64,000 bases of DNA, taken from an uncultured Nitrospiraceae bacterium. GTDB taxonomy: Bacteria > UBA10199 > SBBF01. The notes beneath the pieces are model-generated. The model had not been told where the DNA came from and did no database searches. It saw only the letters and a program-made list of their open reading frames with translations. Numbering within the stretch: position 1 is the stretch's first letter; each line of letters begins with the position of its first letter. A program made the position numbers and the translations under genes. Below, piece after piece: positions 12,493-38,525 of the stretch. Where the stretch lies: assembly GCA_964592255.1 (NCBI GenBank), contig CAZQCI010000001.1, positions 15,885 through 79,884 on the forward strand, written 5' to 3'.

Positions 12493-13851
12493 TTAAGGTT
12501 TAAGATTCATCACTCCCAAGATTGACTTAATGTCATCATCGGTCATTTGAAGTCCGGCTCCCATAAACCAATCCGGATCATGTTGCTTACTGATAAAGTC
12601 ATCAAGACCTGCCATCAAGTAAAAACTTTTGGTCATATTAAGCTGGGCATAAGCTTTTAGATGAGGGGCTTGGTTTTCTTCAGTTTTAAAATTAAATGCT
12701 GAAAACTTAAGGCCCACCGGACCATAATCATAATCAATACCAAAACCGCCGGAGGATTCGATCAATCCACCACGGAAAGTAAAACCATAATATTTTTTAG
12801 CTAACTCAGCAGAAAAGCGGAATTTATCTTTACTGGTTGTTTCAATCTCTTCGCGCACATTGCTCGTAACTCCCCCGGCAGTGACCTTAGTATTTTTAAT
12901 CATCGTACTAGAAGGAGGAGAAGGATCATTAACTAATTCAAACAAAAAATATTTATCAGGACGTGGTTTAACCGCGAGCGACACATAGTGCTTAATATCA
13001 CCACTAACTCCCAAGTACTCACCATGGTAGCCCACATCTAACTGCATGCGTTTGGCCCCGCCCAAAAGATCATTTAAACTATCGATGGAGCTATTTAATT
13101 TTTCAACAGTGCTATCGTCGTTCACTAAGCGACCGATGGTACCTTGCCCATTTTTAATTTTGTCTGTAATAACAGAAATATTATCTAAAGTAGCGTTCAC
13201 TTGAGGCGTATTTCGGGCCACAAGAGTATTCATATTCACGGCTACTTCTCTTAAGTTGGCAATAAGAGCATTAAGATTAGCCTCATTATTAACCGAAACA
13301 TTTTTAAGTGACTCGGTAATTTGTTCTATATTCCTTAAGCTACGAGCAAAAGCAGAATCTTCCCCCGCCATCATTAAGCGCATAGTAGCCGTAATTTGTT
13401 TTACATCGACGGCAATTTCACTCAATTGATTGGTGAGCGAACTGATATCCCCACCCATCGAGGAGGCAACAATTGTATTTCCTTTGGCCAATGGCTCTGC
13501 GATCGGACCCGGCTGATATAATTCGATATAAGTATCACCCAAAAAACCAGTCGCCTTGATACGCGCTTGAACATCGGAGGAGAGTTTAACGGCCTTCTGA
13601 ATACTCAATTCAAGTTTCGCTTTATTGTTATCCACTAAACTGATGCCGGTTACGCTACCAATTTGTATACCGGCAATCTGAACAGGAGTTTTATCAGTGA
13701 TCCCGCTGGCCGATTCGACCATTAAATAAATGGGATAGGTGCTTCCTGGAAAAAGAGATGTTTTGCTAATTTTAAGTGTGGCATAAGCCAAAATAAAAAG
13801 AACAATAACGACAAAAACCCCCGTCTTCATTTGTGCGTTCTTAAAGTTCAT
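12493..13851 (-). CDS. mlaD: MlaD/MCE-domain protein with a long C-terminal helical extension
   Basis: N-terminal TM, then MCE domain (PVQIAGIQIGSVTGISL). About 300 aa of extended helical and beta region follow. Operon with mlaF and mlaE. 11-nt overlap with mlaF. Confidence 0.75.
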   Translation of the reverse strand: MNFKNAQMKTGVFVVIVLFILAYATLKISKTSLFPGSTYPIYLMVESASGITDKTPVQIAGIQIGSVTGISLVDNNKAKLELSIQKAVKLSSDVQARIKATGFLGDTYIELYQPGPIAEPLAKGNTIVASSMGGDISSLTNQLSEIAVDVKQITATMRLMMAGEDSAFARSLRNIEQITESLKNVSVNNEANLNALIANLREVAVNMNTLVARNTPQVNATLDNISVITDKIKNGQGTIGRLVNDDSTVEKLNSSIDSLNDLLGGAKRMQLDVGYHGEYLGVSGDIKHYVSLAVKPRPDKYFLFELVNDPSPPSSTMIKNTKVTAGGVTSNVREEIETTSKDKFRFSAELAKKYYGFTFRGGLIESSGGFGIDYDYGPVGLKFSAFNFKTEENQAPHLKAYAQLNMTKSFYLMAGLDDFISKQHDPDWFMGAGLQMTDDDIKSILGVMNLKP

Positions 13852-14581
13852 ATCCAGAGGAGCGACCTTCTAAAAATTGTTTCACAAAAGGATGAGAAGA
13901 CCTTTTAAAAACAGAGGGGTCTCCTTCCAACAATATTTTTCCTTCATAAAGCATGGCCACTTTATCTGCAATCTTAAAGGTGGCCTCAATATCATGGCTA
14001 ATGACGACGGATGTAATCCCCAATTGTCTTTGCGTATTTAAGATCAATTGGTCGATGGCATCGGTCATAATAGGATCAAGTCCGGTGGTGGGTTCGTCAT
14101 ACAATAAAATTTGAGGAAGCAGCGCAATAGCACGAGCCAACCCTACTCTTTTACGCATTCCACCGGAAAGTTGAGATGGAAATTTTGAATCGATATCTTT
14201 CAACCCCACCAAACCTAACACTTCATGCACGCGTTTTTTTATTTGAGCATCGGTATAATCTGTATGCTCAACAAGAGGAAAGGCTACATTTTCAAAAACC
14301 GTCATCGAATCAAAAAGAGCCGCGTTTTGAAATAGCATTCCAAAATGTTTTCGAAAATCTTTAATTTGTCGGTCATCCAGACTACCAACGGACGTACCAT
14401 TAACAATCACCTCTCCCTCATCGGGACGGACAAGTCCCATTAAGTGTTTTAACAAAACACTTTTCCCTTCACCACTTCGTCCAATAATAACCGTGATTTT
14501 TCCTTTGGGAATTTCGAGATCAACACCACGCAATACGGGTTGTGTTCCAAATTTTTTTTGAAGGTTTTTAAGTAAAATCAT
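13841..14581 (-). CDS. mlaF: ABC transporter ATP-binding protein MlaF
   Basis: Walker A GRSGEGKS. Signature LSGGMRKRVGLARA. Walker B LLYDEPTTGLD. The start is trimmed to ATG at 14581 (MILLKNL…), which abuts the mlaE stop. The longer track ORF has no RBS support. Confidence 0.85.
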   Translation of the reverse strand: MILLKNLQKKFGTQPVLRGVDLEIPKGKITVIIGRSGEGKSVLLKHLMGLVRPDEGEVIVNGTSVGSLDDRQIKDFRKHFGMLFQNAALFDSMTVFENVAFPLVEHTDYTDAQIKKRVHEVLGLVGLKDIDSKFPSQLSGGMRKRVGLARAIALLPQILLYDEPTTGLDPIMTDAIDQLILNTQRQLGITSVVISHDIEATFKIADKVAMLYEGKILLEGDPSVFKRSSHPFVKQFLEGRSSGYEL

Positions 14582-15363
14582 TTCGTTCCAATAATTTCCA
14601 AAATCCACTGAGTCAAAAAATAATCTACTACCAAAATAGTAACTGAAGCCATCACCACAGCACGCGTTGTAGCTTTGCCGACACCAGCAGCCCCTCCACT
14701 GGTTTTGTAACCCTGATAACAACTAATCGCTGAAAGTAAAAAGCCAAAAATGGCCGCCTTAAAAAGACCTGCATACAAATCATCTCCATCAACGTAATGC
14801 CTCATGCGCGCCATGAAAGGCCCTGCAGGAATTTCTAGTAAAACGACCCCCACTAAATAGGCTCCCAAAAAACCTACAAAATTAAAAAGAGTCGTCAATA
14901 AAGGAAGAACAAAAGTGGAGGCCAACAGGCGCGGCACCAATAGATAATGAATCGGGCTCACCGCCATACTTTCCAAAGCATCAATCTGCTCGGTCACACG
15001 CATGGTTCCAATTTCAGCGGCCATACTGGATCCCGCTCGTGCGGTGACCATAAGAGCTGCAAACACAGGAGCAATTTCACGAGTTAAACTTAAGCCAACA
15101 GTTGCCCCTACTAATGTTTCCGCATTAAATAGGCGAAAAGCATAACCTGTTTGCAAAGCAAAAACCGCTCCCGTAAATAAACTGACCAGCAAGATAATAG
15201 GGGTTGAATCAACTCCTATTCTATTAATCTGTTGAATCATGTGATTCCAACGAAAGGGTTTTTCAAAAAGCCAACGAAAAAATTGTCCACAAAATTGGAC
15301 AAAGGCCCCTAAATCTTCAAGGAGAGTCACAAGAAAAAGACGTAAAGATAAAAACACTGTCAT
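14578..15363 (-). CDS. mlaE: ABC transporter permease MlaE
   Basis: Start ATG 15363 is preceded by AAGGAGG (MTVFLSLRLFL…). 262 aa with five TM helices, typical of MlaE. The track's longer ORF start lacks an RBS. Confidence 0.85.
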   Translation of the reverse strand: MTVFLSLRLFLVTLLEDLGAFVQFCGQFFRWLFEKPFRWNHMIQQINRIGVDSTPIILLVSLFTGAVFALQTGYAFRLFNAETLVGATVGLSLTREIAPVFAALMVTARAGSSMAAEIGTMRVTEQIDALESMAVSPIHYLLVPRLLASTFVLPLLTTLFNFVGFLGAYLVGVVLLEIPAGPFMARMRHYVDGDDLYAGLFKAAIFGFLLSAISCYQGYKTSGGAAGVGKATTRAVVMASVTILVVDYFLTQWILEIIGTK

Positions 15364-15428
15364 GATTCCTCCTTTACTTGGAGGAGTTGAAGAGGAGTGA
15401 AGCGTTGTGGAACTCATAAGAGATCTCT

Positions 15429-16577
15429 TTAAAGACCGGTATAAATTCGGGGAACCCGAGATGAAATACCGCACAAAATTTCATAAGAAATGGTATCGGC
15501 CCAATTGGCCACGTCTTCGGCCGAAATTTTTTCTTCCCCTTGCGCGCCGATGAGTACCACTTCGTCACCAGTTTTAGCTTCAGGAATCTCCGTTAAATCA
15601 ACCAAAGTAAGATCCATGGAAATACGGCCAACAACCGGAGCTTTTTTACCACCGACTAACACATACCCTTTGTTGGACAGCAAACGAGGATATCCATCGG
15701 CATAACCTAAAGGCAAAACACCAATCAAACTATCACGCTGAGTAACAAAAGTACCTCCATAACCTAAAGCCGTTTGTGGGGATACTTTTCTCACCTCTGC
15801 CAAGCTACTTTTAAGAGCCATCACAGGACGCAGTTCTATTTTAGACCTATGTCTCGGGTGAGGATAAGCTCCATAAAGCATAATTCCCGGACGCACAAAA
15901 CTTTGCCCTTCTAGCGCTCTGTCAATAATCGCTGCCGAATTGGCAAAATGAATAGGAGCTTTAACTCCTTTTTCTTCCAAAATTTTTAAAATTCTTTCAA
16001 AAAGAACACATTGTCTATCGGTTGGGGCGGCATCTTCTTCATCCGCACGAGCAAGATGAGTCATAAGACCAGCCAAATTGATTTCGGCATACTTTTTAAG
16101 GACCGCAACCACGTCATCAATGTGTGACGGCAAAAACCCCAAGCGCCCCATTCCTGTATCAAATTTTAAATGGACGGCCTGTTCCCGTCCCACTTCACGA
16201 AGATATTCCCCTATTTTCTGTAAATCTTCTAAATTGGAAATAACAGGACGTAACCGATGCTCCACAAAAATTTTAGGAGCCCCAGAGAGCAAACCATCAA
16301 ATACCAAAACTTCACCGCGGATTCCCACATTACGCAATTCAATACCTTCTTCAAGAGTGGCCACACCAAAATGGCGTATTCCACATTCTTCCAGCGCTCG
16401 ACTACACCGCAACGCTCCATGTCCGTAAGCATTGGCTTTAACCACAGCTAAGGGTTGGGTTCCTTGAGGTAGACGCGCCTTAACGGCCTTAATATTAAAA
16501 CGTAAGGCATCAAGACTGACTTCAGCATAAGTGGGACGATAGTGAATAGTCATGTTTCGCTTGCGTTTATAAGTCAC
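15429..16577 (-). CDS. alr: Alanine racemase
   Basis: PLP-Lys motif AVVKANAYGHG. The N-terminus parallels known Alr proteins (RPTYAEVSLDALRFNIKAVKA). The start is ambiguous: GTG 16577, or ATG 16553 (MTIHY…). Confidence 0.9.
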   Translation of the reverse strand: MTYKRKRNMTIHYRPTYAEVSLDALRFNIKAVKARLPQGTQPLAVVKANAYGHGALRCSRALEECGIRHFGVATLEEGIELRNVGIRGEVLVFDGLLSGAPKIFVEHRLRPVISNLEDLQKIGEYLREVGREQAVHLKFDTGMGRLGFLPSHIDDVVAVLKKYAEINLAGLMTHLARADEEDAAPTDRQCVLFERILKILEEKGVKAPIHFANSAAIIDRALEGQSFVRPGIMLYGAYPHPRHRSKIELRPVMALKSSLAEVRKVSPQTALGYGGTFVTQRDSLIGVLPLGYADGYPRLLSNKGYVLVGGKKAPVVGRISMDLTLVDLTEIPEAKTGDEVVLIGAQGEEKISAEDVANWADTISYEILCGISSRVPRIYTGL

Positions 16578-16585
16578 TTCCCTCT

Positions 16586-17407
16586 ATGTTACAAGCCTTT
16601 AGTATGAGCGAAAATAAAGTTCATTTTGTAGGGCACTCCACCGTTTGGGTCACAATAGACGGGCTTCATTTTATTATCGATACTAATTTTTCTAATCGTG
16701 TCTGGCTTCTAAAAAGGAAGGCTCCTTTAGGAATTGATGTAGAAAAATTACCAAACGTTTCTGCCTTACTAGTCACCCATGCCCATTACGATCATTTAGA
16801 TTTATTTTCCTACAAATACTTTGATCAAAAAAAAGAAGTACTCTGCCCCCCTACCCTTGGATCTTTAATTTCACGATTCATTAATAACCCGGTTACGGAA
16901 TTAGCCCCATGGGAAACAAAAAACTATGGCAGCGTCACCGTTACGGCCGTTCCTACTCGCCATTACGGATTTCGTCTTTCGGGTCTGCGCTACACTCAAT
17001 GTACCGGTTATATCATTCAAGGGAAAAACTTGACCGTCTACCATCCCGGCGACACTGCCTACGGACCTCACTTTAAAGAAATTGGAGAAAAATTTAAGAT
17101 TGATGTGGCCTGTCTTCCCATAGGAGCGTTTCGTCCCCGCTGGTTTATGCAAAGCCGGCATATGAGTCCAATAGATGCCCTTCAAGCTTTTGATGATTTA
17201 AAAGCAAAAACTTTAGTCCCCATTCATTGGGGCAGCTTCAGGCTGGCACAAGATTCGCTATCGGAAGCCATTGAGATACTGCAAACGGAACTTCAATCAC
17301 GAAGTAACACCGCTTTCTTAAAAATATTGCAACCGGGAGAAAATATTCACTGGCCTGCGGAAATAGGAAGCACTTCATCTTTAGTTTCAACCACACAACT
17401 ACCATAA
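16586..17407 (+). CDS. MBL-fold metallo-hydrolase
   Basis: HxHxDH motif LLVTHAHYDHLD. Downstream His/Asp ligands (YHPGDTAY, PIHWGSF). Its 3' end overlaps the next minus-strand gene. Confidence 0.7.
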   Translation: MLQAFSMSENKVHFVGHSTVWVTIDGLHFIIDTNFSNRVWLLKRKAPLGIDVEKLPNVSALLVTHAHYDHLDLFSYKYFDQKKEVLCPPTLGSLISRFINNPVTELAPWETKNYGSVTVTAVPTRHYGFRLSGLRYTQCTGYIIQGKNLTVYHPGDTAYGPHFKEIGEKFKIDVACLPIGAFRPRWFMQSRHMSPIDALQAFDDLKAKTLVPIHWGSFRLAQDSLSEAIEILQTELQSRSNTAFLKILQPGENIHWPAEIGSTSSLVSTTQLP

Positions 17408-17799
17408 GCGATATCCGCATTAGCCGGTTTCACAGCCACCACTTTTTCTTTTGAAATAGTCACAAAGACATCCCCCACTTCACAAGAGCGGGTTACAGTT
17501 TTTCGATGAAGCATGAGCCACTGGGTAGCCGTATCACGCTCTTGATTTTCATTCACTGTCTTTTGAGTCTTTTTCTTGGTATAAAGCCAAACTTGGTCCC
17601 CGGAGCTATGCGAAAAATTTTCTGTCTGGTAAAAAGGCTGGCCACGTTGAGAAATAAGCTCCGAAACTGTCATGCCTGGCTTGATAATCTGTAGGGAGTT
17701 GTCCGGTTGCGAAGTTTCAGTCGTTGTAGCCAAAGCTAAAAAATCGACACAGAAAACAAGAAGGAAAAGAAAAAAAAGGGAGGGAAATATTCTTTTCAT
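17347..17799 (-). CDS. Hypothetical secreted protein
   Basis: Signal peptide MKRIFPSLFFLFLLVFCVDFLALA. No recognisable motif. The annotated C-terminus overlaps the 3' end of the preceding MBL-fold gene by about 60 nt. Confidence 0.4.
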   Translation of the reverse strand: MKRIFPSLFFLFLLVFCVDFLALATTTETSQPDNSLQIIKPGMTVSELISQRGQPFYQTENFSHSSGDQVWLYTKKKTQKTVNENQERDTATQWLMLHRKTVTRSCEVGDVFVTISKEKVVAVKPANADIAYGSCVVETKDEVLPISAGQ

Positions 17800-17840: not shown

Positions 17841-19763
17841 TTAATAGGGTAACTCCAGCATTCTATTTTCTAGCGGAGATAAACTAGTATCACGGCAATC
17901 TAAGTCTTCTGTACTGCAATAAAGGGAATAGGAAATTCCTTCTTCTAAGGAAATAATGTGAGCCTCCTGGTCGTCGTAAAGCCAAATGGGGCGTGACAAC
18001 CCTTCAAAGCTTACGTCCCTAAGAGATATTTGGATAGAACCCAGGTTCATCGCACTTGCGTAGATCATATAATCCAAATCAGTTGATAAAAAATCAGCAT
18101 CCGTCAGATGTAATTGAGTATCTATTCCATTAGCAACTAAATGGATGTCACTGTCTTCAAAATCAACATCGTCAATCCTCGTTACTCCACCCGTTATATC
18201 AGCGGCCTGTCCCTCCATACTCCAACCGTGAATTTCAATCTCACTGTCAGAAAGAGACACGGCACCTACTTGATCCCGAGAATCGTTATTACCATAAGCT
18301 TCCAACTCTTCTATGCTACCCTGGGACGCCACCATAGTTAAAGCAGTATTAAAGTCTCCGGAATAATTATCAATCAAAGTCAAACCGGAAATATCGACCA
18401 CACTGCCAGTGACGTAAAGTGCCCCGACAAAACTTGAGTTATTTCCCGAAAAAACCACATCATTCATCGTCAGATAAGAAGAGGATACCCTTAAGGCTCC
18501 AGAAGCCATACTCTTATTATCCTTCAAAATGACGTTATCCAAAGTAACCCGACTAGACATAGCCGAAAGTGCAGACCCACTATGACCAGACCTATCAAAG
18601 CCGCCAGTCATAGTTAAATTAGAGAGATGAACTTCGCCCCCTGAGACTTCGAGAATAGAACCTACATTGCCTCCCGAAATCACTGTTTGAGAAGGATCTT
18701 CACTTAAACCAAGAATAGAAAAGGATCTTTCAGAAACCGCATAATTTACAAGCGTGTAGGTACCTGGTTCCACGGAAATTGTACCGCCATCTTGAAGCCT
18801 GTCGAAGGCATCATCTAGCGTGGTCACATCAGCCCGAAATGAAGGCCCTACACGCACATTTTCTCTGAAAAAATTTTCATCTTCCGGATCATTCGATAGG
18901 GCTGGCAATAAAAGGTTATCGGAGTGACCAAAGCAAGAAATAACAGCCAACTGTTCATCGACAAAACCAGGATTGCAAGAATCGGGCGATATATAATCCA
19001 TGATATTGGGTTCCGGATGGAACACATTACCTTCGGCATCAACAACATCCTCATCACAAGTAATCACGCATTCATCATCAATGTCACAATAAGCCGCACC
19101 CGGATCCGCTTCGGTACCGCACAAATAATCTCCAGTATAATAACATTCCTCATCGGTTGAACACTCGTCGTCACTACGGGAAACCAGTTCATCCGTAAAA
19201 GGCAAAGATTCTTCTTCCAATTTATCATGTCGATCGGAGGATTGCTCCCCAAAGGTATGTTCTAATCCGAACTTATGGCCTAGTTCGTGGGACCAAGCCT
19301 TTTCACCGCTGCTTGTCGAAAGGAAAATAGCCAAAGAATTACTTAAAGACTGCCCTCCCCATTTGGTTATTTCGTCATTACGATTAACATCTCTGATTTT
19401 ATCGGTTAAAAAGATGTTAATGACGTCCGAATCACTATACTGCTTATCAATTTCTTTATTATTCTGTTTGTCTCCACCGATCCAGACAGTATCGGCCCAC
19501 GAGTTATTTTTGATCGAATCGATGTCAGTAACAATAAATTGTATGCCTGATTTGGCAAAGTCTTCGTTAACCTTTTGAATATATGCATAAATTTCTTCAG
19601 GGTCCAACCCTCCAACCCCTTGCTCATTGACAAGATTATGAATAGCTACACGATAGGTTGTGACTTCAGTAGGAGATTCAAAAGATTGAAGATAAGAAGG
19701 ATCCCAACATTCTTGGGTATCTTGATTGGAACAACCAGCAGTTAACAACAATAAGGGCAACAT
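17841..19763 (-). CDS. Lipoprotein with an N-terminal metzincin zinc-metalloprotease domain (M43/pappalysin-like) fused to a C-terminal right-handed parallel beta-helix (pectin-lyase-fold) region
   Basis: Lipobox LLLTAGCSN. Zinc motif HELGHKFGLEHTF (HExxHxxGxxH). Cys/Asp-rich linker. Repeated beta-helix turns (GGNVGSILEVSGGEVHLSNLTMTGG; SSFVGALYVTGSVVDISGLTLIDN). Confidence 0.6.
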   Translation of the reverse strand: MLPLLLLTAGCSNQDTQECWDPSYLQSFESPTEVTTYRVAIHNLVNEQGVGGLDPEEIYAYIQKVNEDFAKSGIQFIVTDIDSIKNNSWADTVWIGGDKQNNKEIDKQYSDSDVINIFLTDKIRDVNRNDEITKWGGQSLSNSLAIFLSTSSGEKAWSHELGHKFGLEHTFGEQSSDRHDKLEEESLPFTDELVSRSDDECSTDEECYYTGDYLCGTEADPGAAYCDIDDECVITCDEDVVDAEGNVFHPEPNIMDYISPDSCNPGFVDEQLAVISCFGHSDNLLLPALSNDPEDENFFRENVRVGPSFRADVTTLDDAFDRLQDGGTISVEPGTYTLVNYAVSERSFSILGLSEDPSQTVISGGNVGSILEVSGGEVHLSNLTMTGGFDRSGHSGSALSAMSSRVTLDNVILKDNKSMASGALRVSSSYLTMNDVVFSGNNSSFVGALYVTGSVVDISGLTLIDNYSGDFNTALTMVASQGSIEELEAYGNNDSRDQVGAVSLSDSEIEIHGWSMEGQAADITGGVTRIDDVDFEDSDIHLVANGIDTQLHLTDADFLSTDLDYMIYASAMNLGSIQISLRDVSFEGLSRPIWLYDDQEAHIISLEEGISYSLYCSTEDLDCRDTSLSPLENRMLELPY

Positions 19764-19977
19764 ATCGGTAAAAAATCAATACTTTCCGATAATTAGACCG
19801 ATTATGAGTAAGATTTGGGCCTAATCTCATCCTTATTATCGTCAAAATTATGAATTAAGTGCTTGTATAGACAAAAAAATGTTCACAGTTGTGAATGGCT
19901 TTATGAAAAGAAAAAACTCTGAATAGCAGAAGCAAATAGGACCTTGTAATGATAAGAAATGTCTTATAAAGAATTAG

Positions 19978-21958: not shown

Positions 21959-23077
21959 ATGAAAAAATCGATTGTCCAAGCAATAGGCCTCGGGATTTTT
22001 TTAACGGTGCTCGTCATCATGATGCTGTATTATGTTGAAACAGCTCCAAACTATGCCGACACTCTCAAACAAGCCCCTCATTTAACTGAAGGAAAAAAAC
22101 CTCAAGCCGGCTTTACTGGCCCCCTAGCCATACGTGGCCACTTAACAACAGACAAACCTGCATTTGACCCTGATTATCTTCCGTTTCCAAACACAGAACA
22201 CAAACAATACGCCATACTTAAGCGCTCTGCCGAAATGTATGTATGGCATCAATCCAGCCAAAACTCTGCCCGCACAACTCCACAACATGTAGAAGATTAT
22301 CATTATCAAGCTGGATGGGATCGTTACATTCCTGTTTCTTCTTCTTTTTTCGTTCGTGAAGGACATACAAACCCCGAAAAATGGCCCACCCCTCCCTTAG
22401 CCATCTTTGTTGCCGAAGGCCTTAAAATTTCAGGGATCCCCATCTCAATGGGGCAAAACCAAAAAAATGCCCTTAGCCCATCGCAATGGCAGCCATTAAC
22501 ATTATCTTCCAAGATGCTCCCAGAAAAGGAAGGAAATGAAGATCCTCTTCTCACTGTGAGCCCCGATTCTAAAACTCTTTATTACACCCAAAAACAATGG
22601 GATGGGACAGACAGCTCGCTCACTATTGGAGATATGCGCTTCAGCTATGAAGGGCTGGAAATAAAAAACTCTCTAGTGGTTCTAGGTAATTGGGATGGAG
22701 CAACACTTTCCCCTATTTGCAAATCAAAATTTTATCCTTGTTTTTTAGGTATTTATGAAGGAGATTTTCAAGCATTTTCTAATCAACTTAATCAAAACTA
22801 TCATGCCCTTCGTTATGCAGCCCGTATCTTTAGCGCCCTCGTCTTATGGCTAGCTTTTTATCTGATACTCAAACCTTTTTTCCATATCTTGCAGGTCATC
22901 CCCTTTTTCGGCAGTTTTTTACGCATTGGCCTAGGCATACTATGCTTAGCCGCCTCCATCATCAGCGTGGCCATGATGTCCCTTTTCTTTAATTTCTTTT
23001 GGGTGATTTTAGTTGTGGTCTTAAGCGCTACGCTAATTCCTTTTTTCAGAAAAAAAGAACCTACTTCCAATTTTTAA
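21959..23077 (+). CDS. Hypothetical membrane protein (N-terminal TM anchor, large extracytoplasmic domain, C-terminal TM hairpins)
   Basis: TM MKKSIVQAIGLGIFLTVLVIMMLYYV. C-terminal hydrophobic block LAFYLILKPFF…ISVAMMSLFFNFFWVILVVVLSATLIPFF. No catalytic motif recognised. Confidence 0.45.
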   Translation: MKKSIVQAIGLGIFLTVLVIMMLYYVETAPNYADTLKQAPHLTEGKKPQAGFTGPLAIRGHLTTDKPAFDPDYLPFPNTEHKQYAILKRSAEMYVWHQSSQNSARTTPQHVEDYHYQAGWDRYIPVSSSFFVREGHTNPEKWPTPPLAIFVAEGLKISGIPISMGQNQKNALSPSQWQPLTLSSKMLPEKEGNEDPLLTVSPDSKTLYYTQKQWDGTDSSLTIGDMRFSYEGLEIKNSLVVLGNWDGATLSPICKSKFYPCFLGIYEGDFQAFSNQLNQNYHALRYAARIFSALVLWLAFYLILKPFFHILQVIPFFGSFLRIGLGILCLAASIISVAMMSLFFNFFWVILVVVLSATLIPFFRKKEPTSNF

Positions 23078-24293
23078 GCAACATCTCTTGGACCACGTAT
23101 TGAGAGCCTTTAGTATCCACACCAACATTAACGCTATCGGAATGATTATCTTTATTCACGTAAGCTTGGTAGATAGTAGCCGTTTTAGCATCAGCTTTGA
23201 CAATCACATTCAATCGCAAAACAGAGGTGTCATTATTATACCAGCCCACTTGAGCCGAACTCCAACGCCAGATACTATCACGCACCCAAGTTTTATTAGG
23301 AAAACGCACTCCTAAAACATCGTCTTTGGGATATTTCTTTTTCCAAGCTTTAAGAACAGCATCAGCAATTTCAGCTTTGTCTTTCTCGGCATAAACATCT
23401 TTAGGCGCCTCTGTGCCCGCCAATAATTCTTCCTTAAGTCCTTTTTTGACAGTGTCTAATTCTTTACGAGCTGCCACGAGCGAGGATTGCAATGACTTTG
23501 CAGCTTCCTTAGCCGTTCCATAATCCATAGTTGTCAAATGATCGATATAACTTTGTACTTGCTCCAAATTATTTTCAGACTGCCTAAACATCGCCACTTG
23601 TTTTTTAGCTAATGCTTGCTGAGCACGAGTAGAAGCTTCTTTTACAAGTGTTGGACCTTTGGACTGAGCCTCTTTAATCAACTCTTCTCTCTTGGCTAAA
23701 TAGCCTTGCATGGCCTTAACAGCAGCAGCATGGGCCTTTTGAATCTTAGCGCCTTCTGCAGAGCCCATTTTTATAAGAACCGCATAAGTCTTGAGCACTT
23801 CGTTGACAAAGGCTGCATTGGTTTTTAAATCATCTTCCAACATTTTCATGCTGGAGACATTCAGGTTAACCAAGTTACCGTTCACAACATACGCTTTTGC
23901 AAAACCTTCAATCTTTTGCAAATCGGCATTATAATTTTTATAACTGGAAACATCCGCCTGTTTTTCAGCGGAAGCTTTTTTATCAGAAAACTGTTTCTTC
24001 AAATCTTCAAGGCGCTTAACAAAACTAGCATGACGCTTATACCAATCCGAGACAGTCGCCTCTGTTTTAGGGCAACCATTTTTTTCAATATCAGAAGCAT
24101 ACGCGGCTAATTGTTTTAAAAATTCATCGGCTTTAGCTATAAATGCTGTCAATTGTACAGGAGCTAAAACCGCTTGTTTAATTTTTGCAGCATCAATACC
24201 CTTGTATTCGGTTTCAAAAACCTTCTTTTCAAAGCTATCTAAATTACTATTCTGACGTTTAAGGGCTTGTTGTTGAGTAGGAGTAAGAGCCAT
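23061..24293 (-). CDS. Hypothetical protein, Lys/Ala-rich and alpha-helical (coiled-coil-like), with a C-terminal beta-rich module
   Basis: 410 aa with no signal peptide. Heptad-like KxxAxK-rich sequence for about 300 aa. C-terminal WVRDSIWRWSSAQVGWYNNDTSVLRLNVIV… block. Its 3' end overlaps the upstream gene by 17 nt. Confidence 0.45.
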   Translation of the reverse strand: MALTPTQQQALKRQNSNLDSFEKKVFETEYKGIDAAKIKQAVLAPVQLTAFIAKADEFLKQLAAYASDIEKNGCPKTEATVSDWYKRHASFVKRLEDLKKQFSDKKASAEKQADVSSYKNYNADLQKIEGFAKAYVVNGNLVNLNVSSMKMLEDDLKTNAAFVNEVLKTYAVLIKMGSAEGAKIQKAHAAAVKAMQGYLAKREELIKEAQSKGPTLVKEASTRAQQALAKKQVAMFRQSENNLEQVQSYIDHLTTMDYGTAKEAAKSLQSSLVAARKELDTVKKGLKEELLAGTEAPKDVYAEKDKAEIADAVLKAWKKKYPKDDVLGVRFPNKTWVRDSIWRWSSAQVGWYNNDTSVLRLNVIVKADAKTATIYQAYVNKDNHSDSVNVGVDTKGSQYVVQEMLLKNWK

Positions 24294-24932: not shown

Positions 24933-26531
24933 TTGGCCGATAAATACTATATGATTGTTAAAGTGGTCCAGTCGCCAATACCGACAACTGAAAAAAATAC
25001 CATTGCTTTTCTCGAATTCCTCAAAAAAAACCATATCGGTAATAATGGTGACGACATTTTCACCGCACAAGAAATTCGGGATGTTTTTGTGGTTGAAGGC
25101 ATTCCCGAAGCCTCTTTCGAAACGTGGGCTTATCTGTTTAAAGAAGGGGTCTTGGCCTTTCATGCCGTGGATGAACACAAAATTATAAGACAAGCTCGTT
25201 CGGCTTACAATTATATCCAAAAAAACCACGCCGTCCTTTTACAAAGAGCACCAACAACACCGGAACATACGGTAACAGCCCATACAAAAGTCACAACTCG
25301 AGAAGGGAGTACACTTTATCTCTACCAGCCTTTAGCAGCAGGTTCATTTTTCTACGCTTTAGACTCAGAAGGAAAAATTATTAAGGAAATTGTTAAAGTA
25401 CCCCCAGGTTCACAGCGCCATAGTTATAGCGGATACACACCCAGTAGCGCAGTTATGGCCGAAGAGGAAATGGCAACGCGTTCTTTCCATCTATCTCTAG
25501 ATACGCTTGCCCCCTTAGCGTCTAAAATACTATTTTTTTCCGGAATGGAAGAAGACGACCATCACGGCAACCTATGCAATTACCTGCTTTTATCTTTTGA
25601 TTCTCCAATGGAACATCTTAGTGATAGTTGGCAAACCGGTTTACTCCTAGACAGTGAGGAGGTTGGCGCAAGCCTCGATCCTCATTGCAATTACCAGGAT
25701 TATGTAATACCTTCTTCAACAGCAGGCATAGACGCTGATTCCATCGGAGAAGGATCCCACCAAGTAACCCTAAAGTTTCAAAATGAATTGGGAGGAACAA
25801 CAACGGCAACAGGAATACTGAATGTCAAACGAGCAATGATAGCCATAGACAATGCCAGCACCCCTCTTTTTATTTATAATAATAGGCCCGACACTACTCA
25901 GGATGAAGCTGCCATCCAGATGACGGAAAGGCTTCTTCGAGAATCCCTTCAGTGTGGCATTCGCATCAAAGGATTTAGCCTTTTCCTGAACTTAGGGAGC
26001 CCTCTACAAAGTATCGTAGATTCCAATACCGGCATGGTCAACATGCCCGTCACAACCGAAACAGAAAATTGGGAGCAAAATTTCAAAGATATTTATTATC
26101 ATGAAGTGGAAGGACATTCTGCCTTCGATACCATTCCCAACGATGTTTTTATCAAATTCAACACTCTGTATAAGCAACTTGTTACCTTAGATAAAAAAGG
26201 CTCCTCTTTTAGTCCAATACCCGAATTAGCAACCTACAACACACCAGACAGCCATGAGTACACGGGACTCAAAAGCCATATGACCCATTCGTTTGATGTC
26301 TCTTACGATATAGACAATTGTGCTCTTGCTGTTTTTCAAGACGAGATCTATACAGGAATACCCAATGCCGGACACCCTTGGGACAGCAACCATGAACTTT
26401 TTGCCAGCACCCGCGCCATCATCCGACGAGGAGACAAAGATAAGCTGATTGCTAACATCAACAAAGAATTATCTGGATCAGCTCAAGAATTAGCTCTTCA
26501 GGTCATCGACACTGTCGAACAAACAATGTAG
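24933..26531 (+). CDS. Hypothetical cytoplasmic protein (532 aa, no recognisable domain)
   Basis: Long ORF with coding-like composition and no signal peptide. It contains HEVEGH, which is HExxxH and not a canonical zincin motif. Confidence 0.45.
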   Translation: MADKYYMIVKVVQSPIPTTEKNTIAFLEFLKKNHIGNNGDDIFTAQEIRDVFVVEGIPEASFETWAYLFKEGVLAFHAVDEHKIIRQARSAYNYIQKNHAVLLQRAPTTPEHTVTAHTKVTTREGSTLYLYQPLAAGSFFYALDSEGKIIKEIVKVPPGSQRHSYSGYTPSSAVMAEEEMATRSFHLSLDTLAPLASKILFFSGMEEDDHHGNLCNYLLLSFDSPMEHLSDSWQTGLLLDSEEVGASLDPHCNYQDYVIPSSTAGIDADSIGEGSHQVTLKFQNELGGTTTATGILNVKRAMIAIDNASTPLFIYNNRPDTTQDEAAIQMTERLLRESLQCGIRIKGFSLFLNLGSPLQSIVDSNTGMVNMPVTTETENWEQNFKDIYYHEVEGHSAFDTIPNDVFIKFNTLYKQLVTLDKKGSSFSPIPELATYNTPDSHEYTGLKSHMTHSFDVSYDIDNCALAVFQDEIYTGIPNAGHPWDSNHELFASTRAIIRRGDKDKLIANINKELSGSAQELALQVIDTVEQTM

Positions 26532-32843: not shown

Positions 32844-34697
32844 ATGAAAACTTCCCCTATCTTCTTGGCTCTATTTTCACTAGCCCTTTACGGTTGCAGC
32901 GGAAAATCTTCAGACACTCACGACAACGCCATCACCATTGCTCCCTTGGAAAGAACACAAAACCCCAATGGAGGCACAGTGAAAGGGTCATCATCTAACA
33001 CCCCAAATACATCTTCTAATCCAAGCCCTAGTGGAAGCACCTCTGGAAGAGGCGGAAGCACAGGCTCCGAAAGAGATACAGACCCAAGTGGCGGCACAAG
33101 TTCAACCACACCCGAAGAGGAAACCGACACAACACCTCACGTCTCTTCTATTTCGATGGAACGCATCGGACGTTTTTCAACTGGCCTTTTTAATGAAGAT
33201 GCTCAAACGATTTTAGATTACGACTCCATCAATGAACGGGCTTTTGTCATTAATTCCAGCAGCGCTCACCCTTCTGTGTCTGTGCTGGACATGAGTGACC
33301 CGTTAAACATTGTCGAATATAGCGCCCATTCAGCCATCGAGCCGTATTATCCCGGTACAACCCCATTGGGTATTTCAATTTTTAAAACATACATTGCGAT
33401 TTCATACCAAGCTAATCCTAAAACCGATAATGGTTACGTAGTTTTTTACGACTCTAACACTTTTGCCGTATTGGCCAAAGTTACCGTAGGAGCAAATCCA
33501 GACATGATTACTTTTACGCCGGATGGTACTAAAGTTATTGTCGCCAATGAGGGCGAGCCGAGTGACGATTACACGACAGATCCCGTAGGTTCTGTGGGCA
33601 TTATTGAGCTTCCTGATGACATCACCGATTTGAGAAATAGCGATGTAAAAACAGCCAGCTTTACAAGTTTTAATGCTCAAAAAATAATTTTAAAAAACAG
33701 AGGCGTTCATTTTTCAACAACAGGGGCTAGTGTTGCCAAGGATTTAGAACCAGAATACGTTACGGTTTCGGACGATGGAGCCACCGCCTGGGTTGTCTTA
33801 CAAGAAAACAATGCTTTAGCCGTTGTCGATATTAACAGTGCCACCGTTACCAAAATACTTCCCTTGGGTGTAAAAGATTTTAATGACTCTTCTTTAAGCC
33901 ATGGACTTGATCCAAGTGATAAAGATGGCGGGGCCAACATTAACAATTGGCCTGTGTATGGCATGTACCAACCGGATGGTATTGCCAGTTATACCGTAGA
34001 TGGGAACACCTACCTCGTCACCGCTAACGAAGGAGACGGTCGGGATTATACTGGGTTTAGTGAAGAAGCTCGTGTGGAAGACTTAACTCTAGACTCTACG
34101 GCCTTTGCTGCTTATCCCGATCTAGATGATGAAGAAAATTTAGGCCGACTGAAAGTCACCTCTTCCAAAGGAGATACGGATGGAGATGGCGATTATGATG
34201 CTTTGTATTGTTTTGGAACACGCTCCTTTTCTATTTGGTCCAGTGTTGGAGAATTAGTTTATGACAGCGGCGCCGATTTTGAAGAAAAAATTCTAGAAAC
34301 TGCTGGAGAAGATTATTTCAACACAGACTATAATTCTAACGAAGGAGACTCCCGTAGTGATAATAATGGTCCTGAACCGGAACCCCTAACTGTCGGCACC
34401 ATTTATGATAAAACTTATGCTTTCATCGGTATGGATAGAGAAGGAGGAATTATGATCTATGATATCACCACTCCCTCCTCTCCTACTTTTGTGGATTATG
34501 TCCTTAACCGCAATTTCACCGCTGTCCCCTCCGACCGTTTGATCACCAGCGATGATGGAACCAGTGACTTATCTCCAGAAGGGATCCGCTTTATCTCTGC
34601 GGAAGACAGCCCCACCCAAGCTCCGCTTCTTCTTGTCGGTAATTCAGTAAGCGGCTCTACTACGGCCTATGAAATCGACGTGACACTCACGGAATAA
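32844..34697 (+). CDS. Lipoprotein with an S/T/G/P-rich linker and a large beta-propeller-like domain (choice-of-anchor-I/phytase-like repeats)
   Basis: Lipobox LALYGCSG. Linker …SSSNTPNTSSNPSPSGSTSGRGGSTGSERDTDPSGGTSSTTPEEETDTT. Repeated motifs of type LVTANEGDGRDY, VIVANEGEPSDDY and YCFGTRSFSIW. Confidence 0.5.
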   Translation: MKTSPIFLALFSLALYGCSGKSSDTHDNAITIAPLERTQNPNGGTVKGSSSNTPNTSSNPSPSGSTSGRGGSTGSERDTDPSGGTSSTTPEEETDTTPHVSSISMERIGRFSTGLFNEDAQTILDYDSINERAFVINSSSAHPSVSVLDMSDPLNIVEYSAHSAIEPYYPGTTPLGISIFKTYIAISYQANPKTDNGYVVFYDSNTFAVLAKVTVGANPDMITFTPDGTKVIVANEGEPSDDYTTDPVGSVGIIELPDDITDLRNSDVKTASFTSFNAQKIILKNRGVHFSTTGASVAKDLEPEYVTVSDDGATAWVVLQENNALAVVDINSATVTKILPLGVKDFNDSSLSHGLDPSDKDGGANINNWPVYGMYQPDGIASYTVDGNTYLVTANEGDGRDYTGFSEEARVEDLTLDSTAFAAYPDLDDEENLGRLKVTSSKGDTDGDGDYDALYCFGTRSFSIWSSVGELVYDSGADFEEKILETAGEDYFNTDYNSNEGDSRSDNNGPEPEPLTVGTIYDKTYAFIGMDREGGIMIYDITTPSSPTFVDYVLNRNFTAVPSDRLITSDDGTSDLSPEGIRFISAEDSPTQAPLLLVGNSVSGSTTAYEIDVTLTE

Positions 34698-36455: not shown

Positions 36456-38525
36456 TTGAAAAATTTTATTCAACAATTGATTATTGTATTTTCTCTGTTG
36501 CTCCCTGCTCTTTCGGGTTTAGCAGCCTCTCAAGAGCCTCTTTCACGGAAAGTATTAGCGCTTTATGAATCCAGCGTTTATTCAGATCCAGCCTCTACAC
36601 TCATTCATCGGACGGCAGAACTCACATTAAACTATTTGGGCCTACAAGTGGAATACCGCCCCGTGGAAAGCCCCCTTCCTTCTGATGATGACATGCAGCC
36701 TTACATAGGCTTCATCACTTGGTTTACCAATGAAAATGCCGTCCCCCATCCGGATCTTTACTGTCAATGGATGCGCCATCAGATTCAAACAGGAAAAAAA
36801 ATAGTTCTCTTAGAAAACTGGGGATTGTTTCAAGACAAAAAACGTCATCTCAGCCCCATATGTGAAGACACTTTTAAAAAATTGGGAATAGAATACAAAG
36901 GGGAATACGCCGACAACCCCTACTTTTTAGAAGTAGCGGAACAAAAAACAGAATGGGTAGAATTTGAACGAAAAATTAATTTTACCGAAAACCTCACTTA
37001 CAGTTGGTTTAAAGCCATTGATCCCCAAAGTACCGTCTACCTTAAAGTTCGTAGAACGGACATGGTGAATAGTGAATCAGACATGGTTGTCACCACCCCT
37101 CAAGGTGGCTTTGTAGCACCAACCTGGCTCATCTATAACGACACAGAAACGAATCATATTCAATGGCGTGTTAATCCTTTTTTATTTTTTGAAAAAGCGT
37201 TTGACGTACCAGACTGGCCGCGCCCCGATACAACAACTTTAAATGGAAACCGAATTTTTTATAGCCACATTGATGGTGATGGCATTTTTAATATTTCTAA
37301 AATTGATCAAAAATCATTTTCTGGAGAAGTGATCTTAAATGAAATTTTAAAGCAATACCCCTCACTCCCTATCACACTCGGCCTCATCACAGGCTACATG
37401 GACTTGAAGGAATTCAACAATCCACGCACTCAAAAGCTGTACCGCGAGATGATAGAATTGCCGCAAGTAGAAATTGCCTCGCATGGCTATGCCCATCCTT
37501 TGGTTTGGAAAACAGGAGAACTGTCTTTAAAAATTCCAGATTACAACATGAATGCCGAAAAAGAAATCAACGGATCTATTCAGCAACTCAACCAAATGAT
37601 TGAGTCTTTAGGAATCACGTATAAAAAAACCTCTCTCTTTCAATGGACAGGAGACTGCACCCCTTCCGCCATACAAATTAAAATGGCAGAACAAACGGGG
37701 TTACCTAATCTTAATGGAGGTGGTGGGCGCCAAGATGACAATTTCTATGGTTTAGCGGCCCTCTACCCCATCGGCATTACAAAAGAAGGCGCCCATCAAA
37801 TTTATGCCGGGGCTTTTAACGAAAATAATTTCACCAATCTGTGGAGCGGCCCTTATTATGGGTTTGCCCACTTACTCTCCACATTGGACAAAACCGAAAA
37901 CCCTCTACGCCTTAAAGCCGTAGATGTTTATTATCATTTTTACAGTGGGGAACGTTGGGCTTCACTAAAAGCTGTGAAAAAAATTTATGATTCCTTTTTA
38001 AACAAAAATATCTTCCCCATTCATGCCAGCCAATACGCCAGAATTGCTGAAGGATTTTACACAACTGAAATTAAGCGCATTGCCAGTGGTCATTTTGTCG
38101 TTAGTAAAAATGGAGTCTTACAAACCATTCGTTTTGACCATGAAAAAAGAAATCTAGACCTCTCTCAATCGACAGGTGTTCTAGGTTTTATTCACGATAA
38201 AAATGCCCTGTATGTTTCATTAGATGAATCGGAAAACCACGTCATTCAACTATCAGAGGCTCAGCCCTCTTCTCCTTACTTAATTCAATCTACTTTTCAG
38301 GTTTCGCAACTAACAAAAAAAGTGGAGGGCTTTTCGTTTCAAAAACAAGGATGGTTAAAAAGTCATTGCCTTTGGGGAGGGCTAAGACCCAACCACAGTT
38401 ACCGAGTCATAACACAAGATGAAACTCAACGATTAACAACTTCTTCAACAGGGGAATTGAAAATAGACTTTCAAAAAAGTGAAAATGGATTAACCCCCGT
38501 CTTAGTAAGGGTTGAAGCAGAATAA
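36456..38525 (+). CDS. Periplasmic polysaccharide deacetylase (CE4/NodB-homology) multidomain protein, equivalent to the C-terminal two-thirds of PelA
   Basis: Signal peptide MKNFIQQLIIVFSLLLPALSGLAA. CE4 motifs FYSHIDGDG (MT1-like) and EIASHGYAHP (HxxxHP, MT2). 689 aa. Overlaps the PelB-like gene. Confidence 0.6.
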   Translation: MKNFIQQLIIVFSLLLPALSGLAASQEPLSRKVLALYESSVYSDPASTLIHRTAELTLNYLGLQVEYRPVESPLPSDDDMQPYIGFITWFTNENAVPHPDLYCQWMRHQIQTGKKIVLLENWGLFQDKKRHLSPICEDTFKKLGIEYKGEYADNPYFLEVAEQKTEWVEFERKINFTENLTYSWFKAIDPQSTVYLKVRRTDMVNSESDMVVTTPQGGFVAPTWLIYNDTETNHIQWRVNPFLFFEKAFDVPDWPRPDTTTLNGNRIFYSHIDGDGIFNISKIDQKSFSGEVILNEILKQYPSLPITLGLITGYMDLKEFNNPRTQKLYREMIELPQVEIASHGYAHPLVWKTGELSLKIPDYNMNAEKEINGSIQQLNQMIESLGITYKKTSLFQWTGDCTPSAIQIKMAEQTGLPNLNGGGGRQDDNFYGLAALYPIGITKEGAHQIYAGAFNENNFTNLWSGPYYGFAHLLSTLDKTENPLRLKAVDVYYHFYSGERWASLKAVKKIYDSFLNKNIFPIHASQYARIAEGFYTTEIKRIASGHFVVSKNGVLQTIRFDHEKRNLDLSQSTGVLGFIHDKNALYVSLDESENHVIQLSEAQPSSPYLIQSTFQVSQLTKKVEGFSFQKQGWLKSHCLWGGLRPNHSYRVITQDETQRLTTSSTGELKIDFQKSENGLTPVLVRVEAE

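What the first reader, a model, noticed from the sequence alone, without database searches (positions are those of the whole stretch)
17841..19763. Lipoprotein fusing an M43-like metzincin domain to a pectin-lyase-fold beta-helix
HELGHKFGLEHTF (HExxHxxGxxH with HTF) is most like the pappalysin/cytophagalysin (M43) zinc site. It is followed by a Cys/Asp-rich linker and about 350 aa of right-handed beta-helix repeats.
The beta-helix may be a carbohydrate-binding or adhesin module. This would target a surface-anchored protease to a glycan substrate, a combination suited to predation, host interaction or matrix remodelling.
Basis: partly seen in the sequence, partly recalled or inferred. Interest (0 to 1): 0.5.

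Follow-up and report, generated by a model that had tools for sequence, protein, structure and literature searches.

The report
Pappalysin-type zinc protease fused to beta-helix
This gene encodes a very divergent but apparently intact zinc protease of the pappalysin (M43) family, with a lipoprotein-like N-terminus and a C-terminal right-handed beta-helix; the domain combination is rare, but both parts are known kinds.

Summary
Window 17841-19763 (- strand) is one 640-aa ORF with HELGHKFGLEH at residues 159-169 and a Met-turn (NIMDY, M255).

Pfam's M43 model misses the protein (E 0.24). However, a profile of the query plus six same-architecture homologues hits PAPP-A2, PAPP-A, ulilysin and mirolysin at 3e-13 to 6e-6, and other metzincins only at 3e-3 or worse. 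54 of the 66 sequences in the N-domain alignment match Pfam Peptidase_M43. An AlphaFold model (pLDDT 79.5) matches proulilysin, PAPP-A and promirolysin best.

One correction: the "Cys/Asp-rich linker" is the lower subdomain of the catalytic domain, not a linker.

The lipobox (LTAG-C11) recurs in homologues, but the signal peptide is unusually short and has no basic residue. A subfamily-conserved Cys19 may act as a short cysteine-switch prosegment; this is inferred.

About eight proteins with this architecture were found among the best 150 hits in 1.8 billion representatives. Gene neighbourhoods are not conserved. Modest interest.

The parts
17841..19763 (-). Whole gene: 640-aa ORF including the stop codon. 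Predicted mature protein is ~69 kDa with pI ~4.05.
19731..19763 (-). N-terminal hydrophobic peptide with a lipobox-like end (MLPLLLLTAG-C11). It is short and has no basic residue.
   Evidence: Comparable lipobox-like N-termini occur in homologues P0003 (TTIA-C), P0010 (LAQG-C), P0011 (LFA-C) and P0025 (SLVG-C).
19665..19730 (-). Short prosegment-like stretch (residues 12-33) containing Cys19 (codon 19707-19709). It is a candidate cysteine switch.
   Evidence: A Cys sits at a fixed 23-24 residues before the first beta-strand in 7 of 8 subfamily members. The model has short helices at 14-26. The role is inferred from mirolysin and ulilysin (PMC6949598, PMC11674741).
18909..19664 (-). M43 / lower-pappalysin catalytic domain (residues ~34-285).
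19257..19289 (-). Extended zinc-binding motif HELGHKFGLEH. Zinc ligands are H159, H163 and H169; E160 is the catalytic base.
19002..19250 (-). Acidic, Cys-rich lower subdomain (residues 172-254). It has 27 D/E against 3 K/R, cysteines 201/207/215/226/232/236, and the invariant motif G211-D212...T217...D220. It probably binds calcium and is disulfide-stabilised.
   Evidence: The calcium role is inferred from PMC6949598 and PMC11674741. pLDDT is low at 175-182 and 200-203.
18993..19007 (-). Met-turn NIMDY. M255 is the Met-turn methionine and Y257 sits at the 'tyrosine-switch' position two residues downstream.
   Evidence: PMC11674741
18867..18908 (-). Short interdomain linker (residues ~286-299), modelled with low confidence.
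17994..18866 (-). Right-handed parallel beta-helix (residues ~300-590). It has about 10-11 coils of degenerate PMP-like repeats. Its N-terminal cap (TLDDAFDRLQDGGTISVEPGTY) resembles the start of pectinesterase and NosD domains.
17844..17993 (-). C-terminal tail (residues 591-640). The subfamily-conserved Y-x-C616-S-x5-C623 motif is probably a disulfide cap. There is no beta-barrel, T9SS sorting domain or C-terminal membrane anchor.

Best explanation
The gene encodes an exported zinc endopeptidase of the lower-pappalysin (MEROPS M43) group of metzincins, fused to a non-enzymatic right-handed beta-helix.

**Shown**
- The active-site inventory is intact: zinc ligands H159, H163 and H169, general base E160, Met-turn M255 and Tyr257.
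- The family-specific lower subdomain is present (GDxxCxTxADP, the conserved cysteines, FxxEQ).
- The predicted fold is closest to proulilysin, PAPP-A and promirolysin.
- The C-terminal ~290 residues fold as a pectin-lyase-type beta-helix. Its sequence relatives are PMP or Beta_helix repeat proteins.

**Inferred**
- The protein is exported through Sec and probably lipidated on Cys11. With Ser at +2 it would be sent to the outer membrane under the E. coli rule.
- Residues 12-33 act as an unusually short prosegment. Cys19 may cap the catalytic zinc, as in mirolysin and ulilysin.
- The acidic lower subdomain binds structural calcium.
- The beta-helix lies distal to the membrane anchor and has no conserved charged residues. 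It would serve as a binding or targeting surface that brings a protein or glycan-decorated substrate to the membrane-proximal protease.

The gene stands alone. Its neighbours are housekeeping genes, and they differ in every homologue locus examined.
For: **ORF and motifs:**

**Invariant catalytic and family residues in the subfamily:**

**M43 homology**
- Exhaustive phmmer hits to N-domain proteins at 1e-12 to 1e-7.
- 54 of the 66 sequences in alignment A2 match PF05572.
- Profile A1 hits PAPP-A2 at 2.6e-13, PAPP-A at 6e-12, ulilysin at 1.4e-9 and mirolysin at 5.7e-6. Other metzincins score 3e-3 or worse.
- Profile A2 hits ulilysin at 5e-22.
- A profile built without the query or its subfamily scores the query at 191 bits over residues 29-297.

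**Structure**
- AlphaFold model with pLDDT 79.5 and pTM 0.72.
- Foldseek top hits are proulilysin 8cdb, PAPP-A, PAPP-A2 and promirolysin 6r7v.

**Beta-helix relatives:** 24 of 48 match Chlam_PMP, 20 of 48 Beta_helix and 8 of 48 NosD.

**No conserved D/E/H/K/R in the beta-helix:**

**Lipobox-like N-termini in 5 of 8 subfamily members:**. A GTG start would give P0003 a canonical MASHRKIMLLLTTIA-C.

**Conserved Cys at fixed spacing:**

**Family features:** taken from PMC6949598 and PMC11674741.
Against: - Curated models do not reach threshold on the protein itself: Peptidase_M43 E 0.24, Reprolysin_5 26.6 bits against a cutoff of 27, and no Pfam hit at all for residues 282-640.
- The signal peptide is only 10 residues before the Cys and has no K/R. 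It could be cleaved by signal peptidase I after TAG, or the 5' end could carry an assembly error.
- Cys19 is followed by Trp, not the Cys-Gly of known lower pappalysins. The prosegment is about 20 residues rather than 34-60.
- The subfamily consensus has an odd number of catalytic-domain cysteines, so Cys19 could instead form a disulfide.
- The profiles used were built from hits to the query, which inflates their scores.
- No activity, localisation or ligand data exist.
Confidence: 0.8

Rival explanations
1. Bifunctional enzyme. The beta-helix would itself be a polysaccharide lyase, hydrolase or epimerase, so the protein would cleave both glycan and protein in a matrix or cell wall.
For: The best structural neighbours of the beta-helix are carbohydrate-active enzymes and phage depolymerases: pectin lyase-like 7chu, GH87, RbmB, AlgE4, PL6 and GH28. 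The N-terminal cap resembles pectinesterase (8tne, 3.5e-5).
Against: No D/E/H/K/R column is conserved across the subfamily's beta-helix; only Gly, Asn, Ala, hydrophobic and Cys positions are. No Pfam or NCBIfam enzyme family is matched. Sequence relatives are mainly PMP or Beta_helix repeat proteins. The same fold is shared by non-enzymatic adhesins and passengers such as PfbA, Vag8 and rhombotarget A.
Confidence: 0.12
2. Soluble secreted or periplasmic protease rather than a lipoprotein. The N-terminal peptide would be removed by signal peptidase I, or the annotated start is wrong.
For: The peptide is very short (Cys at position 11) and has no basic n-region. T-A-G also fits a signal peptidase I -3/-1 site. 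No good Shine-Dalgarno sequence lies at the proper spacing. An upstream ATG in another frame (MRLGPNLTHNRSNYRKVLIF...) would join the ORF if the 6-T run were one base shorter, giving a basic n-region.
Against: A Cys directly after a hydrophobic stretch recurs in 5 of 8 subfamily members. A TGA five codons upstream blocks any in-frame extension. A promoter-like site at 19830-19801 would start the transcript downstream of the alternative ATG (weak evidence).
Confidence: 0.3
3. Catalytically dead or non-proteolytic metzincin-like module that serves only as a binding domain on a beta-helix adhesin.
For: The protein is very divergent, falls below all curated thresholds, and carries a long low-confidence acidic insert after the zinc motif.
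Against: Every residue needed for catalysis is present and invariant in the subfamily: HExxHxxGxxH, E160, M255 and Y257. This is the pattern expected under selection for activity.
Confidence: 0.07

Closest known systems
Ulilysin (Methanosarcina acetivorans) and mirolysin (Tannerella forsythia), the lower pappalysins of MEROPS M43
   Same: Extended zinc motif, Met-turn with Tyr two residues downstream, a lower subdomain carrying the D-T-P/A-D-P segment and conserved cysteines, and the FTxxQ helix. These are the best sequence-profile and fold matches. There is also an N-terminal segment with a Cys ahead of the catalytic domain.
   Different: Identity is only ~14-20% in structural alignments. The prosegment is about 20 residues rather than 34-60 and lacks the Cys-Gly motif and the Arg two residues before the Cys (PMC6949598). 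The protein has extra cysteines (8 in the catalytic domain), a longer acidic insert, a lipobox instead of a plain signal peptide or T9SS tail, and a C-terminal beta-helix.
Cytophagalysin (CPL1) and other multidomain bacterial M43 proteins
   Same: A lower-pappalysin catalytic domain followed by non-catalytic C-terminal modules (PMC11674741). Many of the query's N-domain homologues are of this type, carrying PKD, MAM, fn3, GEVED and Por_Secre_tail domains.
   Different: The C-terminal module here is a beta-helix, not Ig-like domains. There is no T9SS C-terminal sorting domain.
Pappalysin-1 and pappalysin-2 (PAPP-A, PAPP-A2)
   Same: These are the top profile hits for the subfamily (2.6e-13 and 6e-12) and top fold hits.
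   Different: They are ~1500-residue animal proteins with LNR and CCP modules and specific IGFBP substrates. None of those modules is present here.
Chlamydial Pmp-type (PF02415) and Beta_helix/NosD (CASH) repeat proteins
   Same: The C-terminal domain's sequence homologues are mostly these families. The repeat pattern (G-A-L/V ... F/L-x-x-N) and the fold agree.
   Different: The query's repeats are too degenerate to match any Pfam repeat model. There is no autotransporter barrel.
SPATE/IgA-protease-type autotransporters (a protease head on a beta-helix)
   Different: Those proteases are serine proteases, not metzincins. Only ~50 residues follow the helix here, so there is no C-terminal beta-barrel translocator. 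The membrane attachment, if any, is an N-terminal lipid.

Membership tests
Metzincin clan | Extended zinc motif HExxHxxG/NxxH/D | tested here: met
   HELGHKFGLEH at residues 159-169. H159, E160, G162, H163 and H169 are invariant in the subfamily.
Metzincin clan | Met-turn methionine downstream of the zinc motif | tested here: met
   M255 in NIMDY. It is invariant in A1 and nearly invariant in A2. It aligns to the NYMDY Met-turn of ulilysin.
Pappalysin family (MEROPS M43; lower pappalysins) | Significant sequence relationship to M43 members that is stronger than to other metzincin families | tested here: met
   A1 profile: PAPP-A2 2.6e-13, PAPP-A 6e-12, ulilysin 1.4e-9, mirolysin 5.7e-6, against 3e-3 or worse for serralysins, adamalysins and astacins. 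54 of the 66 sequences in A2 match PF05572. The leave-out profile gives 191 bits.
Pappalysin family (MEROPS M43; lower pappalysins) | Match of the protein itself to the curated Pfam model PF05572 above its gathering score | tested here: not met
   E 0.24-0.73, 10-12 bits against a cutoff of 23, covering only residues 155-187. Membership rests on intermediate sequences and on fold.
Pappalysin family (MEROPS M43; lower pappalysins) | Tyr two positions after the Met-turn Met ('tyrosine switch') and the two conserved catalytic-domain disulfides | tested here: met
   Y257 is invariant. Cys207, Cys215, Cys226 and Cys263 align with the family's conserved Cys columns. The features are as described in PMC11674741. 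The disulfide pairing itself was not tested.
Pappalysin family (MEROPS M43; lower pappalysins) | Catalytic-domain fold closest to solved pappalysins | tested here: met
   Foldseek ranks 1-10 and 12 are proulilysin, PAPP-A and PAPP-A2; promirolysin is at rank 23. Adamalysins and fragilysin rank lower. The model has pLDDT 79.5.
Pappalysin family (MEROPS M43; lower pappalysins) | N-terminal prosegment with a Cys-Gly cysteine switch | tested here: inconclusive
   Cys19 is conserved at a fixed spacing in 7 of 8 subfamily members, but it is followed by W/F/R/A/L/H rather than Gly. It lies 23-24 residues before the reference position in the first beta-strand, against mostly 33-49 in ordinary M43 hits.
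Pappalysin family (MEROPS M43; lower pappalysins) | Structural calcium sites in the lower subdomain | not testable with these tools
   Invariant D212, T217 and D220 and an acidic segment (27 D/E in 85 residues) are consistent with calcium binding. Metal binding cannot be computed here.
Right-handed parallel beta-helix (pectin lyase-like fold) | Stacked three-strand coils forming a right-handed helix, similar to solved members | tested here: met
Pfam Beta_helix / NosD / Chlam_PMP repeat families | Match to the curated repeat models | tested here: not met
   There is no Pfam hit for residues 282-640 even at E 10. NCBIfam NosD gives only 24 bits against a cutoff of 300. The homologues do match these families.
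Bacterial lipoprotein | Signal peptide with a basic n-region, a hydrophobic core and a lipobox [LVI][ASTVI][GAS]C | tested here: inconclusive
   L-T-A-G-C11 follows a hydrophobic run, but no K/R is present and the Cys is at position 11. The motif recurs in homologues. No dedicated predictor was available.
Type Va autotransporter | C-terminal ~250-300-residue beta-barrel translocator after the beta-helix passenger | tested here: not met
   Only ~50 residues follow the helix and they have no family match.
T9SS cargo (as with many bacterial M43 proteins) | Por_Secre_tail C-terminal sorting domain | tested here: not met
   The domain is present in 33 of the 66 A2 sequences but absent from the query.

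The most novel reading that the evidence does not exclude
The protein belongs to a small, undescribed subfamily of lower pappalysins in which the lipid anchor, a minimal cysteine-switch prosegment (~20 residues, C-x-x-P type) and the catalytic domain are arranged in series. Removal of the prosegment would then both activate the protease and release it from the membrane. The shed enzyme would be guided to a surface polymer of another cell or of the matrix by its PMP-like beta-helix. In effect this would be an 'activate-and-shed' targeted protease.
Probability: 0.15. Interest if true: 0.45.

Novelty: new variant of a known kind. Interest (0 to 1): 0.27.

Why it matters
- It extends the lower-pappalysin (M43) family to a lineage so divergent that curated models miss it.
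- It shows a domain partner, a PMP-like beta-helix, that the one literature search made did not turn up for this family.
- The short Cys-containing segment placed between a lipid anchor and the catalytic domain suggests a compact way to couple latency with membrane release. If real, that would interest protease biochemists.
- Practically, it is a candidate secreted or surface protease of an uncultured bacterium.
- It does not change what is known about how metzincins or beta-helices work.

Tried and rejected
- **Direct family scans.** Pfam and NCBIfam scans of the protein and of each half gave only sub-threshold metzincin hits and nothing for the C-terminal half.
- **Word-indexed homologue searches.** The query alone returned only itself. 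The A1 profile returned only beta-helix proteins.
- **Direct phmmer against PDB.** Nothing meaningful was found.
- **Single-sequence AlphaFold.** The model was unusable (pLDDT 45.7). A second run with a 62-sequence alignment was needed.
- **Genome scans.** The A1 alignment had no stretch conserved enough to search with. The query alone found no relative, so the source genome and close relatives are not among the GTDB representatives.
- **Organism identification.** CoxI matched Myxococcota, Oligoflexales/Bdellovibrionales and Opitutales MAGs equally well at 72-76%. The organism stays unresolved, so the 'predation' idea has no taxonomic support either way.
- **AFDB fold search.** That library was unavailable.
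- **Conserved neighbourhood or partner gene.** I looked for something like a potempin-type inhibitor (mentioned in the abstract of PMC9890683 listed). Three homologue loci have unrelated neighbours, and tblastn of the window's neighbours against them found nothing.
- **Rejected hypotheses.** Autotransporter and T9SS cargo were rejected because there is no barrel and no sorting domain.
- **TGA recoding upstream of the start.** TGA ends 5 of 33 long ORFs in the window, so it is an ordinary stop here.
Full report
**1. The observation**

Window 17841-19763 on the - strand is a single 640-aa ORF. It starts at an ATG that lies five codons after an in-frame TGA, so it cannot be extended upstream. HELGHKFGLEH translates from 19257-19289, and a Met-turn-like NIMDY from 18993-19007. 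Base composition around the gene (GC 0.405) matches the rest of the window. The neighbours are ordinary chromosomal genes: alanine racemase, MlaD/E/F, an MBL-fold hydrolase, an Ntn/AAT-type hydrolase, a class-I glutamine amidotransferase and a TMEM43-like protein.

**2. The N-terminal domain**

*Curated models are nearly blind to this protein.* Reprolysin_5 scores 26.6 bits against a cutoff of 27. Peptidase_M66 scores 22.5 bits, just above its 20.6 cutoff, but covers only 74 residues around the zinc site. Peptidase_M43 reaches only E 0.24. A word-indexed search of 5.8 billion proteins returned only the protein itself.

*An exhaustive search does find relatives.* phmmer against 1.84 billion cluster representatives found 984 proteins at E<=1e-3 and 35 at E<=1e-10. 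They fall into three groups:
- A handful of 440-730-aa proteins that match both halves: P0003, P0009, P0010, P0011, P0015 (and its cluster mate P0151), P0025 and P0055.
- Many proteins that match only residues ~30-290.
- Many proteins, often about 2000 aa long, that match only residues ~300-590.

*The family is M43.*
- Of the 66 sequences in the N-domain alignment A2 (the query's N-domain, the seven same-architecture proteins and 58 N-domain-only hits), 54 match Pfam Peptidase_M43 and 33 carry a T9SS Por_Secre_tail.
- A profile of the query plus six same-architecture homologues (A1) hits solved pappalysins: PAPP-A2 at 2.6e-13, PAPP-A at 6e-12, ulilysin at 1.4e-9 and mirolysin at 5.7e-6. Serralysins, adamalysins, astacins and MMPs score 3e-3 or worse.
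- The broader profile A2 gives ulilysin at 5e-22.
- A profile built from 58 N-domain homologues, leaving out the query and its subfamily, scores the query at 191 bits across residues 29-297. Those sequences were chosen as hits to the query, so the score is inflated, but the margin is large.

*Family features are present.* The invariant subfamily positions are H159, E160, G162, H163, L167, H169, G211, D212, T217, D220, M255, Y257 and Q271. These correspond to:
- the metzincin zinc motif;
- the lower-pappalysin D...T-P-A-D-P segment;
- the Met-turn;
- the Tyr two residues after it (the 'tyrosine switch');
- the FTxxQ helix.

All of these are described for ulilysin, mirolysin and cytophagalysin in PMC6949598 and PMC11674741.

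**3. Structure**

A single-sequence AlphaFold run was useless (pLDDT 45.7). With a 62-sequence alignment (A4) the model reached pLDDT 79.5 and pTM 0.72.

**4. Corrected anatomy**

| Residues | Feature |
|---|---|
| 1-11 | Hydrophobic peptide ending in a lipobox-like LTAG-C |
| 12-33 | Short segment with two small helices and Cys19 |
| 34-285 | Catalytic domain |
| ~286-299 | Low-confidence linker |
| ~300-590 | Beta-helix of about 10-11 coils |
| 591-640 | Low-confidence tail with the conserved pair C616/C623 |

It is therefore the lower subdomain of the catalytic domain. It has 27 D/E against 3 K/R and six cysteines. By analogy with mirolysin, it is the region that holds the structural calcium sites and disulfides (PMC6949598; inference). 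The mature protein is very acidic, with pI about 4.05.

**5. The beta-helix**

It has no Pfam match of its own, even at E 10. NCBIfam NosD matches only the N-terminal cap (residues 316-416, 24 bits against a cutoff of 300). Of 48 sequence homologues, 24 match Chlam_PMP, 20 match Beta_helix and 8 match NosD. The repeats read as a degenerate G-A-L/V ... F/L-x-x-N pattern.

Across the subfamily the only conserved beta-helix columns are Gly, Asn, Ala, hydrophobic residues and C616/C623. No D, E, H, K or R is conserved. That argues against a conserved glycan-cleaving active site and for a structural or binding role.

The lipid anchor, if real, is next to the protease, so the beta-helix is the membrane-distal end. 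It cannot be a stalk and is more plausibly a ligand-capturing surface. What it binds is unknown.

**6. Export and latency (inferred)**

*Export.* Five of eight subfamily members have a Cys right after an N-terminal hydrophobic run. P0003 becomes a canonical MASHRKIMLLLTTIA-C if a GTG start is used. However, the query's peptide is very short and lacks a basic residue. An alternative is cleavage by signal peptidase I, or an assembly error. A 6-T run lies just upstream, and one T fewer would fuse an upstream ATG frame that carries a basic n-region. I put lipoprotein status at about 0.6.

*Latency.* Lower pappalysins are made as zymogens. In them a prosegment Cys, within a Cys-Gly motif, blocks the zinc (PMC6949598, PMC11674741). 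Here a Cys sits at a fixed 23-24 residues before the reference position in the first strand in 7 of 8 subfamily members. In ordinary M43 hits the CG(T) motif lies mostly 33-49 residues before that position. This looks like a shortened switch. But the Gly and the Arg two residues before the Cys are missing. Cysteine parity does not exclude a disulfide. I could not inspect model coordinates.

**7. Context and distribution**

The same-architecture homologues are all singleton or near-singleton clusters from MAGs and read-archive assemblies, and none carries a name. Their loci have unrelated neighbours. None of the window's neighbours recurs there. The gene therefore stands alone and is not part of a conserved system.

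The source organism could not be placed. The gene is absent from GTDB representatives. CoxI is 72-76% identical to Myxococcota, Oligoflexales/Bdellovibrionales and Opitutales MAGs alike.

One full-text search for pappalysin together with beta-helix listed three papers, none of whose titles or abstracts concerns such a fusion; I did not open them.

**8. Verdict**

This is a real, intact, highly divergent lower pappalysin (M43) fused to a PMP-like right-handed beta-helix. It is probably exported and possibly lipid-anchored. The protein is a rare variant of two well-known modules rather than a new kind of system, and interest is modest.

Noticed in passing
window 19764-19835 (- strand): Just upstream of the start there is a 6-T run (GATTTTTTACC). 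In another frame an ATG opens MRLGPNLTHNRSNYRKVLIF.... One T fewer would fuse this basic n-region to the lipobox peptide, giving a 31-residue lipoprotein signal. This could be a homopolymer assembly error or a coincidence. A promoter-like site at 19830-19801 argues weakly against it.
   Followed up: partly
window 17347-17799 (- strand): A 150-aa ORF with a signal peptide and two cysteines starts 41 nt downstream of the protease gene on the same strand. It has no significant family match (DUF2845, E 0.11). No counterpart lies next to the homologues, so a potempin-like inhibitor role is not supported.
   Followed up: partly
L001 7084-8001 and the start of the gene at 8001: Homologue P0003 is annotated as starting MLLLTTIAC. 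An in-frame GTG seven codons upstream gives MASHRKIMLLLTTIA-C, a canonical lipoprotein signal, and overlaps the preceding gene. The database start is probably called too short.
   Followed up: partly
window 23061-24293 (-) and 24933-26531 (+): Two long ORFs (410 and 532 aa) have no Pfam match at E<=1e-3 or 1e-5. The 410-aa one is Lys/Ala-rich and looks helical.
   Followed up: no
window 32844-34697 (+): A 617-aa protein with a full-length 'choice-of-anchor I' domain (E 1e-124). A GH57-like protein and a 995-aa TPR protein follow further downstream (36456-41499).
   Followed up: no
window 13841-15474 (- strand): The mechanically listed MlaF-like and MlaE-like ORFs overlap by 145 nt (13841-14722 and 14578-15474). 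The listed TTG start of the ATPase is almost certainly too far upstream.
   Followed up: no
P0050 (homologue, residues ~153-230): One N-domain homologue carries an even more Cys-rich insert after the zinc motif (HCSCCACGDSGIPCPVCEQECDCDC). The loop after the third His therefore seems to be a hotspot for Cys/acidic insertions in this family.
   Followed up: no
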